From positions 1 through 64,000 of IMG/VR virus record IMGVR_UViG_3300049914_000251: a stretch of 64,000 nucleotides of DNA; one strand, given 5' to 3'. The position numbers were made by a program, and so were the translations under genes. Source of the stretch: a virus. Every line of letters begins with the position of its first letter. Position 1 is the first letter of the stretch. Of the stretch, positions 38,925 to 54,288 are shown piece after piece. The notes beneath the pieces are model-generated. The model saw nothing but the letters and a program-made list of their open reading frames with translations, was not told the DNA's origin and made no database searches.

Positions 38925-38954
38925 ATCCTACCATACTTCCTTGTTTCTTGTCAA
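38925..38954 (-). promoter_or_regulatory. sigma70-type promoter
   Basis: TTGACA-N18-TAGGAT with TG extension, upstream of holB. Confidence 0.6.
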
Positions 38955-47045: not shown

Positions 47046-47121
47046 TGGTAGCGGGGGAGGGAGTCAAACCCTCTTCTGTGGTTTATGAGACCACCGCCTT
47101 AATCGCTTTGGCTTCCCCGCA
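47046..47121 (-). tRNA. tRNA-Met(CAT), initiator-like acceptor stem
   Basis: Loop CTCATAA; 1:72 mismatch, G2-C71, C3-G70; CCA. Confidence 0.8.
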
Positions 47122-47213: not shown

Positions 47214-47243
47214 AAAGCAGCCCCGCTGATATCGGAGCTGCTA
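47214..47243 (-). terminator. possible intrinsic terminator or processing hairpin after clpP paralog 2
   Basis: AGCAGCTCCG...CGGGGCTGCT followed by TTGT (short U tract). Confidence 0.4.
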
Positions 47244-47267
47244 AAACCATACGAAAAGCCAAGTCAC

Positions 47268-47933
47268 TCAGCTTTTCTTCGCTCTAAAACTGGCCTTAAC
47301 ATCTGACTTAAATAATCCCATGCTATAAGGTTCATGCAACACCAGATCGCTAGGTGTTGCAACCGCATCCGCCAGCCCATATTCCACAGCTTCCTCACCG
47401 GTTAAATAAAACTCCCTGTCGATGTCACGAAGTATCTGCTTCCTGCTTTTCTTAACTCCGCATTCGCAAAGGATCCTGACCAGAGTCTCCTTCATTTTCT
47501 CCATCTGAATAGCCTCTATCTTAGCCTGCTTAACATCACCCTCGATATTTCCCGACGGCAGATGCAACATAATTGTGCTATTCGGAAACACATACCGATG
47601 CCCTTTAGTACCGGCAGCCAGTATAATAGCTCCCATACTGACAGCCGTCCGGCCTATGGTATAAACAGGAGCCTTGCAAAGCTTTATTGTATCATACAAC
47701 ATGAGTCCAGTATGTACTGCTCCACCCGGGCTATCTATCACCAGATAAATAGGATCACCGTTACGTTGGTCCAGCTCCCACATACAGTCTGCCACATACA
47801 CCGGAGAAACAGCATCGGCCCTCGGAGGAGTACCTATAATCGGACCATACAGGAACAGCACTCTCCGCATCTGCAACGCCTCCTGCGGCGTCATCATTTG
47901 ATCCATTCTCAATCCATTAGGTCTTTCGAACAT
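47268..47933 (-). CDS. clpP: ClpP-family protease (paralog 2)
   Basis: IDSPGG.V..GL..YD, AVSMGA, MLHLPSG, DREFYLT.EEAVEYGL. Confidence 0.93.
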   Translation of the reverse strand: MFERPNGLRMDQMMTPQEALQMRRVLFLYGPIIGTPPRADAVSPVYVADCMWELDQRNGDPIYLVIDSPGGAVHTGLMLYDTIKLCKAPVYTIGRTAVSMGAIILAAGTKGHRYVFPNSTIMLHLPSGNIEGDVKQAKIEAIQMEKMKETLVRILCECGVKKSRKQILRDIDREFYLTGEEAVEYGLADAVATPSDLVLHEPYSMGLFKSDVKASFRAKKS

Positions 47934-51055: not shown

Positions 51056-51403
51056 CTATCTCTCCGGTGGCGTCTCGTTATTTCTCCCGTGGCTCCTTAC
51101 AAACAATCCTCTTACTGCCTCAACCTGGGCAGGGTCATTAATCTTCTTTAATAAAGTCGCAGACACGTTCCAACGCGTACCATCATCGACCGCAACCTTA
51201 ATACATGTCTTACCTAACCGGTTCACCGTTCCCCTGATAAGCGTACCTCTGCCCTTGAACTCCACCCGGTCTCCTACGCTGAACGCAAACTTGGCTAACT
51301 GTTGCTTATTTCTCCAAGCCTCTTTCAGAATAGAGCCAGCCTCATGCAGCTCATCAGAAGTCGCACCTACCAACATCTCGAACAATTTAGCCTTATCTAA
51401 CAT
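51056..51403 (-). CDS. small SH3-like beta-barrel protein
   Basis: FSVGDRVEF..G.V..LG...KV.....WNV. Confidence 0.55.
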   Translation of the reverse strand: MLDKAKLFEMLVGATSDELHEAGSILKEAWRNKQQLAKFAFSVGDRVEFKGRGTLIRGTVNRLGKTCIKVAVDDGTRWNVSATLLKKINDPAQVEAVRGLFVRSHGRNNETPPER

Positions 51404-51434: not shown

Positions 51435-51463
51435 ATACTACCATAAAGCTTATACGATGTCAA
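51435..51463 (-). promoter_or_regulatory. sigma70-type promoter
   Basis: TTGACA-N17-TAGTAT with TG extension. Confidence 0.7.
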
Positions 51464-51470
51464 ATGAAGC

Positions 51471-51547
51471 TGGTCGGAGTGGAAGGAATCAAACCTCCGA
51501 CAATATGGCCCCGAACCATACGCTCTATCAAACTGAGCTACACTCCG
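51471..51547 (-). tRNA. tRNA-Pro(CGG)
   Basis: Loop TTCGGGG, CCA. Confidence 0.88.
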
Positions 51548-51551
51548 ATTG

Positions 51552-51623
51552 TGGGTCTGGTAGGATTTGAACCTACGACAGTCTGCTTAAGAGGCAGCTG
51601 CTCTACCCCTGAGCTACAAACCC
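51552..51623 (-). tRNA. tRNA-Lys(CTT)
   Basis: Loop CTCTTAA; no encoded CCA. Confidence 0.9.
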
Positions 51624-51625
51624 AA

Positions 51626-51699
51626 TGGTGGAGGTAACAGGAATCGAACCCGCGTCTACTCGGTGCAAACGAGTCGTTCTCCCTCTGAACTATACCCCC
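51626..51699 (-). tRNA. tRNA-Ala(TGC)
   Basis: Loop TTTGCAC, G3:U70, CCA. Confidence 0.92.
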
Positions 51700-51701
51700 G
51701 G

Positions 51702-51773
51702 TTGGCACGGAAGGAGTTAAACCTTCTTCCCCGATTTATAAGATCGGAGCACTGTTCGTTGTGCTACATGCCA
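51702..51773 (-). tRNA. tRNA-Ile(TAT)
   Basis: Arm CCGAT-CTTATAA-ATCGG; no complete CCA. Confidence 0.82.
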
Positions 51774-51775
51774 TT

Positions 51776-51849
51776 AGATGGTGAGTGGAATCGGACCACC
51801 TTATAATAGTTTTGCAGACTACCGCCTATACCATTCGAGCCACACCATC
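51776..51849 (-). tRNA. tRNA-Cys(GCA)
   Basis: Loop CTGCAAA, U73; no CCA. Confidence 0.85.
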
Positions 51850-51852
51850 ATG

Positions 51853-51924
51853 AGTGAGAGGAGGGATTCAAACCCTCGATATCCTACATGGCAAGCAGGT
51901 GTTCTATCGCTGAACTACTCCCAC
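51853..51924 (-). tRNA. tRNA-Gly(GCC)
   Basis: Loop TTGCCAT; no complete CCA. Confidence 0.85.
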
Positions 51925-51927
51925 ATG

Positions 51928-51999
51928 TTGGCCTGGTAAGACTCGAACTTACGACCCCTGCTTTATCAGAGCAGTGCTTTACCCCTAAGCTACAAGCCA
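51928..51999 (-). tRNA. tRNA-Ile(GAT)
   Basis: Loop CTGATAA; no complete CCA. Confidence 0.9.
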
Positions 52000-52008
52000 G
52001 TCTATAAG

Positions 52009-52079
52009 TAGGCACTATACGACTTGAACGTATACCCTACAGGTTCAAAGCCTGTTGCTCTGCATTGAGCTAAGTGCCT
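52009..52079 (-). tRNA. tRNA-Gln(TTG)
   Basis: Loop CTTTGAA; A1-U72; no CCA. Confidence 0.85.
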
Positions 52080-52083
52080 TATG

Positions 52084-52156
52084 TAGTCCCTGTAGGACTC
52101 GAACCTACAACCTCTTCCTTGTAAGGGAAAAGCTCTGTCCATTGAGCTAAGGGACT
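52084..52156 (-). tRNA. tRNA-Val(TAC)
   Basis: Loop CTTACAA; no complete CCA. Confidence 0.9.
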
Positions 52157-52158
52157 AT

Positions 52159-52233
52159 TGGCAGCAGAGGCAGGGGTCGAACCTGCAACCATCTCGTTAA
52201 CAGCGAGCCGCTCAACCATTGAGCTACTCTGCT
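52159..52233 (-). tRNA. tRNA-Asn(GTT)
   Basis: Loop CTGTTAA, CCA. Confidence 0.9.
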
Positions 52234-52235
52234 AT

Positions 52236-52310
52236 TGGTGCTCCCAACAGGATTTGAACCTGTGTCCTTAGATTGAGAATCTAACGTCCTAACCACTAGA
52301 CTATGAGAGC
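52236..52310 (-). tRNA. tRNA-Glu(CTC)
   Basis: Loop TTCTCAA, CCA. Confidence 0.92.
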
Positions 52311-52311
52311 A

Positions 52312-52387
52312 TGGCGCACCCAGAGGGAGTCGGACCCTCCACCACTCGGTTGACAGCCGAGCATTCTAACCGCTGAACTATGAGTGC
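52312..52387 (-). tRNA. tRNA-Asp(GTC)
   Basis: Loop CTGTCAA, CCA. Confidence 0.9.
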
Positions 52388-52388
52388 A

Positions 52389-52476
52389 TGGCGGGAAGTA
52401 CAGGATTTGAACCTGTGAGACTGTTACATCTAAAGATTTAGCAAACCTTCTCAATAAGCCACTCTGACAACCAATA
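52389..52476 (-). pseudogene. tRNA-Ser(GCT) with destroyed 5' acceptor strand
   Basis: D, anticodon (TTGCTAA), variable and T arms intact, 3' end ACTTCCC-G-CCA; 5' strand is TATTGGT instead of GGGAAGT. Confidence 0.75.
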
Positions 52477-52477
52477 T

Positions 52478-52495
52478 ATTCAGTTGTTAATGTTC
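52478..52495 (-). promoter_or_regulatory. boxA-like antitermination element inside the tRNA array
   Basis: GAACATTAACAACTGAAT resembles rrn spacer boxA sequences (recalled consensus). Confidence 0.4.
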
Positions 52496-52569
52496 TGGTA
52501 CAGGCAGGAGGAATCAGACCTCCGTTAATCGGTTAAAAGCCGACTGCTTTATCACTAAGCTATACCTGC
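52496..52569 (-). tRNA. tRNA-Lys(TTT)
   Basis: Loop CTTTTAA, CCA. Confidence 0.88.
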
Positions 52570-52572
52570 ACA

Positions 52573-52648
52573 TGGCTGGCTCTATACGACTTGAACGTAT
52601 AACCCCTAGCTTCAGAGGCTAGTGCTCTGCCAATTGAGCTAAGAGCCA
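52573..52648 (-). tRNA. tRNA-Gln(CTG)
   Basis: Loop CTCTGAA, U1-A72, CCA. Confidence 0.9.
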
Positions 52649-52650
52649 AT

Positions 52651-52723
52651 AGCCCTCGACAGGACTTGAACCTGCGACCGTATGTTTAGGAAACATCCTC
52701 TCTTCCAACTGAGATACGAGGGC
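52651..52723 (-). tRNA. tRNA-Arg(CCT)
   Basis: Loop TTCCTAA; no CCA. Confidence 0.9.
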
Positions 52724-52724
52724 A

Positions 52725-52801
52725 TGGCATCCTCGGTGGGAGTCGGACCCACGACCCACGGTTTAGAAAACCGCTGCTCTAATCCTCTGAGCTACGAGGA
52801 C
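52725..52801 (-). tRNA. tRNA-Arg(TCT)
   Basis: Loop TTTCTAA, CCA. Confidence 0.9.
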
Positions 52802-52808
52802 AGAAATA

Positions 52809-52884
52809 TGGTGCTGGAGAGTGGAATTGGACCACCTACCCTCCCGTCTTCGGCGGGATGCTACTACCGATGAGCTACCCCAGC
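52809..52884 (-). tRNA. tRNA-Phe(GAA)
   Basis: Arm TCCCG-CCGAAGA-CGGGA (C33), CCA. Confidence 0.8.
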
Positions 52885-52887
52885 ACA

Positions 52888-52964
52888 TGGAAGGGATAGA
52901 GGGACTTGAACCCTCAACTTTCAGTTTCGAAGACTGCTGCTCTTATCCATTGAGCTATATCCCC
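52888..52964 (-). tRNA. tRNA-Arg(TCG)
   Basis: Loop CTTCGAA, CCA. Confidence 0.9.
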
Positions 52965-52972
52965 AAAATAAG

Positions 52973-53044
52973 TGCCACCAGCGAGATTCGAACTCACCTT
53001 TTCACGTTGAAAGCGTGATATACTAACCACTATGTGATGATGGC
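52973..53044 (-). tRNA. tRNA-Glu(TTC)
   Basis: Loop CTTTCAA; no CCA. Confidence 0.85.
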
Positions 53045-53047
53045 ATG

Positions 53048-53123
53048 TGGAGCTGGAGAGAGGACTTGAACCCCCAACCCGATCATTACAGGTGATCCGC
53101 TCTTCCACTTGAGCTACTCCAGC
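53048..53123 (-). tRNA. tRNA-Thr(TGT)
   Basis: Arm GATCA-CCTGTAA-TGATC (C33), CCA. Confidence 0.88.
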
Positions 53124-53139
53124 CAACAGAAAAGAGATA

Positions 53140-53278
53140 ATAAAGGGCAGGCACGTCAATATCGACCGCTTAACGTCGTGCCTGCCCCTCCGCGAAATAC
53201 TTGGTACGCACTACACTTACTTCTACCATCTCGCACATCCCTCCGTTGCGTACCAAACGGAGCCGTGCCCCCAACTCA
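53140..53278 (-). ncRNA. structured leader or small RNA in front of the tRNA array, ending in a terminator-like hairpin
   Basis: 11-bp GGGCAGGCACG/CGTGCCTGCCC + TTTATT; 10-bp TTGGTACGCA/TGCGTACCAA; alternative CTCCGTT/AACGGAG. Confidence 0.6.
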
Positions 53279-53284
53279 GTCTTT

Positions 53285-53313
53285 AATATACCACATTACT
53301 TATTTCTTGTCAA
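53285..53313 (-). promoter_or_regulatory. sigma70-type promoter of the leader and tRNA array
   Basis: TTGACA-N17-TATATT with TG extension. Confidence 0.75.
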
Positions 53314-53584
53314 GACCCGGAAAAACTTCCCCATTTTCTGCACACTTCTTATCCTCCCACCTGGCAGCCACTTTACGATAGAACTCCAACTTAGCCATCT
53401 CGAGCGCCTTTATAGCATCTCCTATCATATCATAACCCCGCACTCCATAAACAGCTATGAGAAGTTTCGTAATAACATAGTTTACCTTACCATCGATATC
53501 AGGAGAATCAGGAACTAACCTGTAAACCAACTTATCAATAACCTCGTCTAAATAACCCCGCTTCACGTCTTCAATATAAGGCAT
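53300..53584 (-). CDS. conserved phage hypothetical protein
   Basis: MPYI...G..NY.IT.L....E.AKLEFYR.V...ED.K..ENG pattern. Confidence 0.7.
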   Translation of the reverse strand: MPYIEDVKRGYLDEVIDKLVYRLVPDSPDIDGKVNYVITKLLIAVYGVRGYDMIGDAIKALEMAKLEFYRKVAARWEDKKCAENGEVFPGLDKK

Positions 53585-53592
53585 CTCCCCTC

Positions 53593-54288
53593 CTAGCGTG
53601 CCCGGACTTCGACCGGATCCCAATGCTCTGCCCATAAAACTAAAACTTCCACAGCTTCATCTTCGCTGTACACCACTTTTGTAGCATAATGATCCCGCCA
53701 TCCGGAAGGAACACGCTCGCCGTTCGGACCCTGTTTACAAAGAACGCACGTAGGCTTATCCTCCATGAACGTCATGTACCAGAACTCTCCCTGAGTTCCC
53801 CACGATAAATCAGATCCTGTAAGGGTTAGAACCGCGTCGCTCATCCGCATATCATGTAAGTCCCTAGACGTAATTTCCCGCATAGAAAACTTTTCGCTTA
53901 CCTCGGGAATGTCACAGCGTATCTCTTTAAGGTTTCGCAAAAAGCTCTTTCCTCGCATCGGATCCCGCACGGCTATTCCACGCTTTTCAAGCATCTTAGT
54001 AACACGAAGCCGTTGAGCTGACGCTTCCTCAAAAGACAATCCATCTATCCTTCCGGAAAGGTACACAGTAAATGGTCTGCCTGCCTCTATTCTCTTGGCA
54101 TACCGTCTGATTAAATTTACAGCGGACTCTACCGTGTCAGCTACTGCATTCGAATAGACCTGACTAATTAGAGCATATACCGCAGGATCCTCTCCCCCAA
54201 CCTTTCCGGTTAAATCCTTTGGGATCTCTTTCTTAACCAGCTCCTGAATCTTAAATATCAACTCCGTCAATCTTGTTGGATCGGCCAT
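53593..54288 (-). CDS. nucleoside 2-deoxyribosyltransferase-like protein
   Basis: VYLSGRI, DPMRGK, RDL......SDAVL, S.GT..E. Confidence 0.75.
   Translation of the reverse strand: MADPTRLTELIFKIQELVKKEIPKDLTGKVGGEDPAVYALISQVYSNAVADTVESAVNLIRRYAKRIEAGRPFTVYLSGRIDGLSFEEASAQRLRVTKMLEKRGIAVRDPMRGKSFLRNLKEIRCDIPEVSEKFSMREITSRDLHDMRMSDAVLTLTGSDLSWGTQGEFWYMTFMEDKPTCVLCKQGPNGERVPSGWRDHYATKVVYSEDEAVEVLVLWAEHWDPVEVRAR

What the first reader, a model, noticed from the sequence alone, without database searches (positions are those of the whole stretch)
53140..53278. Attenuator/riboswitch-like leader controlling the tRNA array
Seen (minus strand): promoter, then a leader of about 140 nt with mutually exclusive pairings. 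CTCCGTT/AACGGAG competes with TTGGTACGCA/TGCGTACCAA, which is extended by CTCCG/CGGAG. The 5' GGCACG can pair with the same CGTGCC used by the 11-bp terminator-like hairpin before TTTATT. No other promoter is visible before tRNA-Thr. Inference: a switch deciding between a short sRNA and read-through into 21 tRNAs, perhaps working with the internal boxA-like site. I recognise no known family.
Basis: partly seen in the sequence, partly recalled or inferred. Interest (0 to 1): 0.7.

Follow-up and report, generated by a model that had tools for sequence, protein, structure and literature searches.

The report
Structured leader before phage tRNA array
A strong promoter in an uncultured phage makes a folded RNA of about 140 bases that ends in a stop-signal hairpin just before 21 tRNA genes; the parts are real, but nothing shows that they form a switch.

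Summary
On the minus strand there is a near-consensus sigma-70 promoter (53313-53285). About 140 nt of leader follow. The leader holds a perfect 10-bp helix, a 7-bp hairpin around that helix's 5' strand, and an 11-bp GC hairpin followed by UUUAUUAU. tRNA-Thr, the first of 21 tRNAs, starts 21 nt later. The two long helices are far beyond chance.

The "switch" reading is only partly supported. The competing pairings lie inside the 5' domain and do not touch the terminator. Neither terminator arm has an upstream partner better than shuffled sequence gives. Rfam gives no match (T-box, 6S, riboswitches). No homologue of the leader was found anywhere, so covariation cannot be tested. The one relative recovered loses synteny exactly at the promoter and lacks both leader and tRNAs.

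A 19/22-codon mini-ORF follows it and stops inside the terminator loop.

Best reading (0.4): an unregulated, leaky promoter-proximal terminator. It gives a stable short RNA, and read-through feeds the tRNA array.

The main rival is read-through gated by translation of the mini-ORF. This scan noted "leader-peptide attenuators" before tRNA arrays in other phages. Tested here, that reading gets only weak support.

The parts
53285..53313 (-). Sigma-70 promoter TTGACA-17-(TG)-TATATT. The -35 overlaps the end of the upstream DUF6899 gene (stop at 53302-53300). The inferred start of transcription is about 53278.
   Evidence: Shares the motif CTTGACAAGAAA.AAG with the promoter at 38954.
53264..53272 (-). 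G-rich 5' end containing GGCACG. It can pair with UGUGC 53237-53233, extending the hairpin, or with CGUGCC of the terminator's 3' arm.
   Evidence: The pairing to the terminator arm is at chance level.
53241..53262 (-). Hairpin hp1: 7-bp stem CUCCGUU/AACGGAG with an 8-nt loop UGGUACGC. The 3' strand is the Shine-Dalgarno-like GGAG(G), so the stem is an anti-SD:SD pairing.
   Evidence: It forms first in growing-chain folding.
53201..53256 (-). Long-range helix P2: 10 perfect bp, 53256-53247 with 53210-53201. It encloses the SD and both AUGs in its loop. It can be extended by CUCCG/CGGAG (53262-53258 with 53192-53188).
   Evidence: 0 of 3000 shuffles. Probability 0.99 at equilibrium in the 5' domain alone.
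53170..53238 (-). Mini-ORF of 22 codons from AUG 53238, or 19 codons from AUG 53229. It runs through the terminator's 5' arm and stops at UAA 53172-53170 in the terminator loop.
   Evidence: The GGAGG-to-AUG spacing of 10 nt is rare among real genes. The 10-mer GTGCGAGATG is shared only with the start of the gene at 51403.
53145..53187 (-). Terminator-like hairpin: 11-bp GC-rich stem and a 21-nt loop that can form two mini-hairpins (Y shape). Energy -23.2 kcal/mol.
   Evidence: pair probability about 1.0.
53124..53144 (-). U-rich tail UUUAUUAU followed by CUCUUUUCUGUUG. It would serve as terminator tail and as the single-stranded 5' leader of tRNA-Thr, the RNase P substrate.
53137..53165 (-). 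Weak promoter-like match TCGATA-17-TATTAT (9 of 12, no TG) inside the hairpin. If real, it is a second promoter for the array.
   Evidence: About 4 such matches are expected per 4 kb.
51471..53123 (-). Array of 21 tRNA genes, Thr(UGU) to Pro(CGG). No terminator follows it. The next promoter starts at 51463.

Best explanation
This is a promoter-proximal leader with a fixed, leaky intrinsic terminator. It is not a ligand-sensing or tRNA-sensing switch.

Proposed course of events:
1. Host sigma-70 RNA polymerase starts at about 53278 from a strong early promoter of the phage.
2. The first 90 nt fold into the hp1/P2 domain, either as a long hairpin or as a pseudoknot.
3. The 11-bp GC hairpin plus UUUAUUAU stops a fraction of polymerases and releases an RNA of about 140 nt.
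4. The rest read on through the 21 tRNAs and, with no terminator behind the array, into the next genes.
5. In read-through transcripts, RNase P cutting at tRNA-Thr, and probably RNase E in the U-rich spacer, releases the same leader. The hairpin protects its 3' end. A stable short RNA therefore accumulates either way.
6. The hairpin also sets how much of the strong promoter's output, and of read-in from upstream genes, reaches the array.

Shown here: the promoter, the helices and their non-randomness, the absence of a family match, and the absence of an antiterminator. Inferred: the start site, partial termination, the processing steps, and the lack of regulation.
For: - The promoter scores 11 of 12, has an extended -10, and belongs to a phage promoter family.
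- The hairpin has a pair probability of about 1.0. It ranks fifth by folding energy among the hairpins followed by a T tail in the genome scan.
- The 21-nt loop and the interrupted U tract are atypical of strong terminators. The consensus scan, which allows loops of 3-8 nt, does not call it. This fits leakiness.
- No upstream segment competes for either terminator arm beyond chance.
- The second tRNA group (His and the three tRNAs after it) is also preceded by a GC hairpin plus UUUGUAUGU, 7 nt before the tRNA, with no promoter in between. Such hairpins in this phage must therefore be read through.
- No terminator follows the array.
- Precedent: virulent Pseudomonas phages have 42 terminators within 5'UTRs. 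Most of them give either a short RNA under 250 nt or a long transcript, for example a 141-nt RNA in phiKZ (PMC10914365).
Against: - The nested hp1/P2 arrangement is too improbable to be chance. The 10-bp helix appeared in 0 of 3000 shuffles, and its 5' strand is flanked by a perfect 6-7 bp inverted repeat. A plain leader does not explain it.
- hp1 masks an SD-like sequence in front of an AUG, which hints at control of translation.
- Nothing here measures termination efficiency. No RNA data exist.
- The element is an orphan, so purifying selection cannot be shown.
Confidence: 0.4

Rival explanations
1. Translation-gated read-through, a leader-peptide type of attenuation. The mini-ORF (AUG 53229 or 53238 to UAA 53172) is translated. 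A ribosome on its last eight or so codons, or on the stop codon, covers the terminator's 5' arm (53187-53177). The hairpin then cannot form and polymerase runs into the tRNA array. hp1 (anti-SD:SD) versus P2 (SD exposed in the loop) would set ribosome loading. Stalling at late codons read by the array's tRNAs (UUC, GCG, GAG, CAG, GCA, CGA) would prolong read-through.
For: - The ORF has GGAGG upstream. Its stop codon lies in the terminator loop.
- AACGGAGGG also precedes the start of the gene at 74239.
- GTGCGAGATG occurs only here and at the start of the gene at 51403.
- Twelve of 20 non-Met codons are exact cognates of array anticodons, against 37% in phage genes.
- A terminator a few bp after a translated stop codon is almost fully repressed in E. 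coli (PMC4824070).
- Earlier notes of this scan report similar mini-genes before tRNA arrays in other phages. These are leads only.
Against: - The GGAGG-to-AUG spacing is 10 nt. Only 1 of 53 SD-led genes in this genome has that spacing, and most have 4-6 nt. The first AUG has a spacing of 1 nt.
- The codon match is weak: P = 0.03 for 22 codons and 0.08 for 19 codons, uncorrected. Of ORFs of the same size in this genome, 6.6% do as well.
- The number of distinct amino acids is as expected.
- No stall-dependent antiterminator exists.
- The sign is wrong for sensing a shortage at codons 2-10: an early stall leaves the terminator free.
- An open frame of 19 codons is unremarkable on this G-rich strand (own estimate, about 40% from any AUG).
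- There is no conservation data.
Confidence: 0.17
2. An independent small-RNA gene. The roughly 140-nt RNA (5' domain plus terminator hairpin) acts in trans on host or phage RNAs or proteins. The tRNA array merely lies downstream and uses leakage.
For: - Classical sRNA anatomy: own strong promoter, structured body with highly non-random helices, and a hairpin plus U tail.
- Short RNAs produced by early termination can be regulators. StxS from the Shiga-phage PR' promoter is one example (PMC7547250). Candidate ncRNAs derived from 5'UTRs are reported in virulent phages (PMC10914365).
Against: - No homologue was found in any collection searched.
- No complementary match of 11 nt or more to the rest of the phage genome was found within the terminated RNA. 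The only one lies in the post-terminator tail.
- The host is unknown, so host targets cannot be tested.
- The closest relative lacks the element.
Confidence: 0.15
3. A true RNA switch or factor-dependent antitermination. Either a ligand, a tRNA or a protein stabilises a closing helix (5' GGGCACG with CGUGCCU of the terminator's 3' arm) around the P2 domain. Or the 5' domain acts like HK022 put RNA or a nut site and makes polymerase resistant to the terminator.
For: - Growing-chain folding passes through a state in which the 5' end pairs with the emerging 3' arm (n = 130).
- That conformer is only 4-7 kcal/mol above the terminator state.
- The loop of hp1 reads UGGUAC, as does the core of the T-box motif (from memory).
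- The promoter, short terminated RNA and long operon copy the lambda PR'-tR' layout.
Against: - The GGCACG pairing is at chance level.
- There is no Rfam match at E up to 10, T-box and all riboswitches included.
- Only about 20 nt lie upstream of hp1, so there is no room for a T-box Stem I.
- Two Q-family antiterminator models, whose control genomes gave matches, found nothing in the 85%-complete genome. The third model matched no control genome and is uninformative.
- There is no covariation data.
Confidence: 0.1
4. The hairpin does not terminate at all. It is a processing and stability element: 3' protection of upstream RNA after RNase P or RNase E cleavage, and a folding insulator for the first tRNA. 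Read-through is constitutive.
For: - The same hairpin, U-rich spacer and tRNA layout occurs before the tRNA-His group, with no promoter in between.
- The 21-nt loop is unusual for a terminator.
- Both loops contain CGATAT.
Against: - An 11-bp GC stem directly followed by UUU is a competent terminator signal by established rules.
- The hp1/P2 domain remains unexplained.
Confidence: 0.13

Closest known systems
Promoter-proximal (5'UTR) terminators that give short RNAs in virulent phages, such as phiKZ T102 and T131 (PMC10914365)
   Same: A strong promoter, a terminator within 250 nt, and two products: an abundant short RNA or a long transcript. Function is unknown there too.
   Different: Here the downstream unit is a 21-tRNA array, not protein genes. 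There is no sequence relationship. Nothing here is measured.
Lambdoid PR'-tR' unit (6S RNA of lambda; StxS of Shiga phages, PMC7547250)
   Same: A constitutive promoter makes a short terminated RNA in front of a long operon. The by-product RNA can itself be functional.
   Different: Read-through there needs the Q protein. Two Q-family models with working controls found nothing, and the third search was uninformative. This phage looks virulent and large, not lambdoid.
Leader-peptide attenuators (trpL, hisL, pyrBI leader; whiB7 uORF)
   Same: A short ORF upstream of a terminator. Ribosome position could decide whether the hairpin forms. The closest parallel is pyrBI, where tight coupling suppresses termination.
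   Different: There is no 2:3 antiterminator. The SD spacing is poor. Codon enrichment is weak. The regulated genes would be tRNAs.
T-box riboswitch (RF00230)
   Same: A leader that ends in a terminator, with UGGUAC in a loop as in the T-box core.
   Different: No match to the covariance model. There is no Stem I or specifier. No antiterminator overlaps the terminator. It is not upstream of an aminoacyl-tRNA synthetase or amino-acid gene.
Stable small RNAs in the phage T4 tRNA cluster (species 1 and 2, rnaC/rnaD; from memory)
   Same: Small structured RNAs of 120-140 nt, co-transcribed with phage tRNAs and released by processing.
   Different: The T4 RNAs lie at the distal end of the cluster and are not promoter-proximal.

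Membership tests
Intrinsic (Rho-independent) terminator | GC-rich stem directly followed by a U tract | tested here: met
   An 11-bp stem with 9 GC pairs, -23.5 kcal/mol as a duplex, followed at once by UUUAUUAU.
Intrinsic (Rho-independent) terminator | Short loop (3-8 nt) and an uninterrupted U tract, as in strong terminators | tested here: not met
   The loop is 21 nt. The tail has 6 U in 8 nt, broken by A. The consensus scan does not list it. This suggests a weaker, leaky terminator.
T-box riboswitch | Match to the covariance model (Stem I with specifier, T-box sequence, antiterminator bulge) | tested here: not met
   No T-box match at E up to 10 on 53050-53400 or at gathering score on the window.
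T-box or any transcriptional riboswitch | An alternative helix that shares bases with the terminator stem | tested here: not met
   The best upstream partners of both arms are no better than shuffled sequence gives. hp1 and P2 lie wholly upstream of the stem.
Any riboswitch | A conserved aptamer with covariation across homologues | not testable with these tools
6S RNA | Match to the Rfam 6S models (long helix with a central bubble) | tested here: not met
   no match.
Leader-peptide attenuator | A translatable short ORF with a ribosome-binding site | tested here: inconclusive
   The ORF of 19/22 codons has GGAGG upstream, but at a spacing of 10 nt (1 of 53 real genes) or 1 nt.
Leader-peptide attenuator | Enrichment of the regulatory codons | tested here: inconclusive
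   Twelve of 20 codons are exact cognates of array tRNAs against a 37% background. P = 0.03 or 0.08. Of same-size ORFs, 6.6% do as well.
Leader-peptide attenuator | An antiterminator that forms depending on where the ribosome stalls | tested here: not met
   No such helix exists. Only direct occlusion of the 5' arm by the ribosome is possible.
Lambda-type Q antitermination unit | A Q-family antiterminator protein encoded by the phage | tested here: not met
   PF06530 and PF03589 gave no hit while their controls matched. PF06323 matched no control genome, so that search is uninformative. The genome is 85% complete, so absence is not proven.

The most novel reading that the evidence does not exclude
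The leader is a translation-gated terminator for a tRNA operon. An anti-SD hairpin (hp1), which can be replaced by the 10-bp helix P2, controls ribosome loading on a 19-22-codon mini-gene that ends inside the terminator loop. Ribosomes on its last codons, most of which the array's own tRNAs read, then hold the terminator open. Transcription of 21 phage tRNAs would thus be tied to ribosome traffic. This would be a form of leader-peptide control not described for tRNA genes in the published literature I could search. AI notes of this scan report look-alikes in other phages.
Probability: 0.15. Interest if true: 0.75.

Novelty: new member of a known kind. Interest (0 to 1): 0.38.

Why it matters
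Large phages carry tRNA arrays to sustain their own translation or to replace tRNAs that host defences destroy. How these arrays are switched on is almost unknown. A strong promoter with a built-in stop signal directly before 21 tRNAs is a natural place for dosage control. If the stop proved conditional, it would be a new way of regulating tRNA supply. As it stands, the element is an orphan with real structure and no evidence of switching. Its main value is as a well-defined candidate for a simple transcription assay.

Tried and rejected
- Known RNA families: Rfam at gathering score on the whole window and at E up to 10 on 53050-53400 gave only tRNAs and noise (miRNA and snoRNA models).
- Homologues of the leader:
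  - blastn against 50,697 phage records gave only a tRNA-Arg fragment.
  - Three pattern scans of IMG/VR were run. The 120 loci from the palindromic pattern showed no further likeness.
  - An 18-mer scan of 596 Gb of prokaryote genomes gave 5 single hits with no extension. That is at or below the roughly 17 I estimate by chance, so it also speaks against a CRISPR-repeat mimic or a host-derived leader.
- Relatives of the phage:
  - The DUF6899 neighbour has only two relatives at 32-38% identity, and they are not syntenic.
  - The helicase has none.
  - The DNA polymerase has five metagenomic relatives at 41-51% identity. It has nothing closer than 28% in IMG/VR or 32% in GenBank phages.
  - The 231-aa neighbour led to L004 at 79% identity. 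L004 lacks the leader and the tRNAs.
The contigs of P0002, P0004, P0006 and P0008-P0012 could not be read.
- Expression: no RNA holder was listed. One DNA run, probably the source sample, holds the stretch. Only one contig in it covers the leader, without variants.
- tRNA mimicry: no tRNA of the phage ends in GCGUACCA.
- Paralogues: no second copy of the leader exists in the genome.
- boxA link: the core TTAACAA occurs 10 times on this strand. It was not pursued.
- DNA-level reading of the 11-bp inverted repeat as a protein-binding site or origin: not excluded. I give it a low prior because a T tract follows only on the transcribed strand.

Full report
**Context.** The window is the first 64 kb of a 113.8-kb IMG/VR virus record, estimated 85% complete. 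Essentially all long ORFs lie on the minus strand, and the GC skew is strong. The only public run that holds the stretch is a freshwater-sediment metagenome, probably the source sample. The phage encodes a family-A DNA polymerase, a DnaB-like helicase, a UvsX-like recombinase, a CCA-adding enzyme and 27 tRNAs. Its polymerase has only five metagenomic relatives at 41-51% identity. Nothing closer than about 30% exists among IMG/VR contigs or GenBank phages. It therefore represents a very sparsely sampled lineage.

- The promoter TTGACA-17-TATATT has a TG extension at 53313-53285 and scores 11 of 12.
- In a genome-wide scan it is one of the three best matches on the coding strand.
- Its -35 and spacer resemble those of the promoter at 38954. 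It therefore belongs to a family of likely early promoters of the phage.
- The -35 overlaps the last codons of the upstream DUF6899 gene.
- Transcription should start near 53278.

The leader then holds these pairings:

- hp1: CUCCGUU (53262-53256) with AACGGAG (53247-53241).
- P2: UUGGUACGCA (53256-53247) with UGCGUACCAA (53210-53201).
- A possible extension of P2: CUCCG with CGGAG (53192-53188).
- An 11-bp stem, 53187-53177 with 53155-53145, around a 21-nt loop, followed by UUUAUUAU (53144-53137).

Thirteen more U-rich bases lead to tRNA-Thr at 53123, the first of 21 tRNAs that end at 51471.

**Is it more than chance?**

- The 10-bp helix was matched in 0 of 3000 dinucleotide shuffles of the 5' 92 nt. 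The 11-bp stem was matched in 0.07% of shuffles of the whole leader.
- The 5' strand of P2 is flanked on both sides by the two arms of hp1. By base composition I estimate that this has a chance of about 1 in 10,000 once P2 is given. The hp1/P2 arrangement is thus a real feature.
- In contrast, the folding energy of the 5' domain is ordinary (z = -1.0). The whole leader gives z = -2.9.
- The pairing of the 5' GGCACG with the terminator's 3' arm is no better than chance: -14.9 kcal/mol, and 23% of shuffles do as well.
- hp1 and P2 share only the U53256-A53247 pair. P2's 5' strand is essentially the loop of hp1. The two could therefore coexist as an H-type pseudoknot with a 1-2-nt first loop and a 30-nt last loop, or they could be alternatives.
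- In nested-structure folding, hp1 forms first, extended by GCACG with UGUGC (-15.8 kcal/mol at 50 nt). P2 takes over once its 3' strand is made.
- In the finished 5' domain P2 has probability 0.99. The best hp1 conformer lies 3.8 kcal/mol higher, behind a direct-path barrier of about 22 kcal/mol. A kinetic trap is therefore conceivable.

- The competing helices lie entirely upstream of the stem.
- The best upstream partner of the 5' arm is -9.9 kcal/mol, and 53% of shuffles do as well. The stem itself is worth -23.5 kcal/mol.
- When the transcript is cut at the point of decision, the terminator conformer beats the conformer with the 5' end paired to the 3' arm by 4-7 kcal/mol.
- The stem has a pair probability of about 1.0.
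- Rfam gives nothing at the curated thresholds. At E up to 10 on the leader it gives only noise, with no T-box, 6S or riboswitch model.
- The T-box resemblance is limited to UGGUAC in the hp1 loop. Only about 20 nt lie upstream of hp1, which is too few for a Stem I.

**Comparative evidence.** None could be obtained for the leader itself.

- No similar DNA exists in GenBank phages.
- Exact-pattern scans of IMG/VR and of one genome per prokaryote species gave only chance hits.
- The source run holds a single contig over the leader, without variants.
- The one related contig that could be read, L004, is 79% identical in the 231-aa neighbour protein. It keeps gene order from 55933 to the end of the DUF6899 gene. 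It then diverges exactly where the promoter begins, and it has no leader and no tRNA.
- The promoter, leader and tRNA block therefore behaves as a module present in one lineage and absent at this site in the other.

- The 3' arm of hp1 is AACGGAGGG. The same nine bases precede the start of the gene at 74239. hp1 is thus an anti-SD:SD hairpin.
- Two in-frame AUGs follow, at 53238 and 53229. They open a frame of 22 or 19 codons that runs through the terminator's 5' arm and stops at UAA 53172-53170 in the terminator loop.
- The 10-mer GTGCGAGATG around the second AUG occurs only once more in the genome. That copy is at the start codon of the first gene behind the tRNA array.
- If this mini-ORF is translated, a ribosome on its last codons or on the stop codon would cover the 5' arm. 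In E. coli a terminator placed a few bp behind a translated stop codon is almost completely repressed (PMC4824070).

**Test of the leader-peptide reading.** Earlier AI notes of this scan describe "leader-peptide attenuators" before tRNA arrays in other phages. I treated this as a lead and tested it here.

- The SD-to-AUG spacing is 10 nt. Among 53 GGAGG-led long ORFs of this genome only one has that spacing, and 42 have 4-6 nt. The first AUG has a spacing of 1 nt.
- Twelve of the 20 non-Met codons are exact cognates of array anticodons, against 37% in phage genes. That gives P = 0.03, or 0.08 for the 19-codon form. Of ORFs of the same size in this genome, 6.6% do as well.
- The number of different amino acids (13) is the expected one.
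- There is no stall-dependent antiterminator.
- A stall at codons 2-10 would leave the terminator free, which is the wrong sign for a shortage sensor.
- The reading remains possible but weakly supported.

**A second hairpin before tRNAs.** The other tRNA group (His, an Rfam-only tRNA, Ser, Gly) is also preceded by a GC hairpin plus UUUGUAUGU. It sits 7 nt before the first tRNA and directly after the stop codon of the upstream gene, with no promoter in between. Those tRNAs can only be expressed by reading through that hairpin. This argues that such hairpins in this phage are leaky or serve processing and stability. The single tRNAs (Trp, Tyr) sit between ORFs without hairpins. No terminator follows the 21-tRNA array, and the next promoter starts 8 nt after tRNA-Pro.

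**Most likely mechanism.** I take the leader as a promoter-proximal unit with a fixed, partial terminator.

- Some polymerases stop at about 53137 and release an RNA of about 140 nt. The rest transcribe the array.
- RNase P, and probably RNase E in the U-rich spacer, release the same leader from read-through transcripts. The hairpin protects its 3' end.
- This is the layout mapped experimentally in virulent Pseudomonas phages. There, 42 terminators lie in 5'UTRs, and most give either a short RNA under 250 nt or a long transcript (PMC10914365).
- It also recalls lambdoid PR'-tR', whose short RNA can itself be regulatory (PMC7547250). However, two Q-family models with working controls found nothing here. 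The third matched no control genome either, so it says nothing.
- I give this reading 0.4, because it leaves the clearly non-random hp1/P2 domain without a role.
- The rivals and their weights are:
  - read-through gated by translation: 0.17
  - an independent trans-acting small RNA: 0.15
  - a hairpin that only serves processing: 0.13
  - a true RNA switch or factor-dependent antitermination: 0.10

**Verdict.** The two-product architecture and the orphan status hold, but the proposed switch does not. The element is a new, unrelated member of a known kind, promoter-proximal terminators and leader RNAs in phages. Its placement before a large tRNA array is interesting. A simple transcription assay would settle the main question.

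Noticed in passing
window 47216-47262 (-): Two hairpins follow the stop codon of the gene at 47268-47933. The second (GCAGCUCC...GGGGCUGC plus UUUGUAUGU) ends 7 nt before tRNA-His. Its loop shares CGATAT with the loop of the leader's terminator hairpin. There is no promoter between the gene and the tRNAs.
   Followed up: partly
window 53236, 51410, 38890 (-): The 8-mer GTGCGAGA lies 30-50 nt downstream of three sigma-70 promoters (53313, 51463, 38954). These are 3 of its 5 copies on the coding strand of the 114-kb genome. In two of them it continues as GTGCGAGATG at a start codon. It may be a shared 5'UTR motif or a regulator site.
   Followed up: partly
L004:3165-4123 versus window 53318 downward: The closest relative recovered keeps four to five genes in order, then diverges exactly at the end of the DUF6899 gene. 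It has no promoter, leader or tRNA there, and its next two ORFs have no homologue in this phage. The tRNA block behaves as an inserted or lost module.
   Followed up: yes
window 47049-47121 (-): Rfam calls a tRNA (52 bits) between tRNA-His and tRNA-Ser that ARAGORN did not report. The window therefore has 27 tRNAs.
   Followed up: no
window 52474-52495 (-): The 22-nt spacer between tRNA-Lys(UUU) and tRNA-Ser(GCU) holds CAUUAACAACUG, which another reader called boxA-like. Its core TTAACAA occurs 10 times on this strand, so the match alone is not significant.
   Followed up: partly
window 53593-54288 (-): This 231-aa protein has no Pfam or PHROG match. It has four metagenomic relatives and a strongly conserved core (RPFTVYLSG.IDG, SWGTQGEFW, CVLC). 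Its function is unknown.
   Followed up: no
window 53124-53141 with 53225-53232 (-): In read-through transcripts only, AUUAUCUC behind the terminator can pair with GAGAUGGU, which holds the second AUG. This encloses the terminator and gives the lowest-energy fold of the 155-nt RNA (-55.5 kcal/mol).
   Followed up: no
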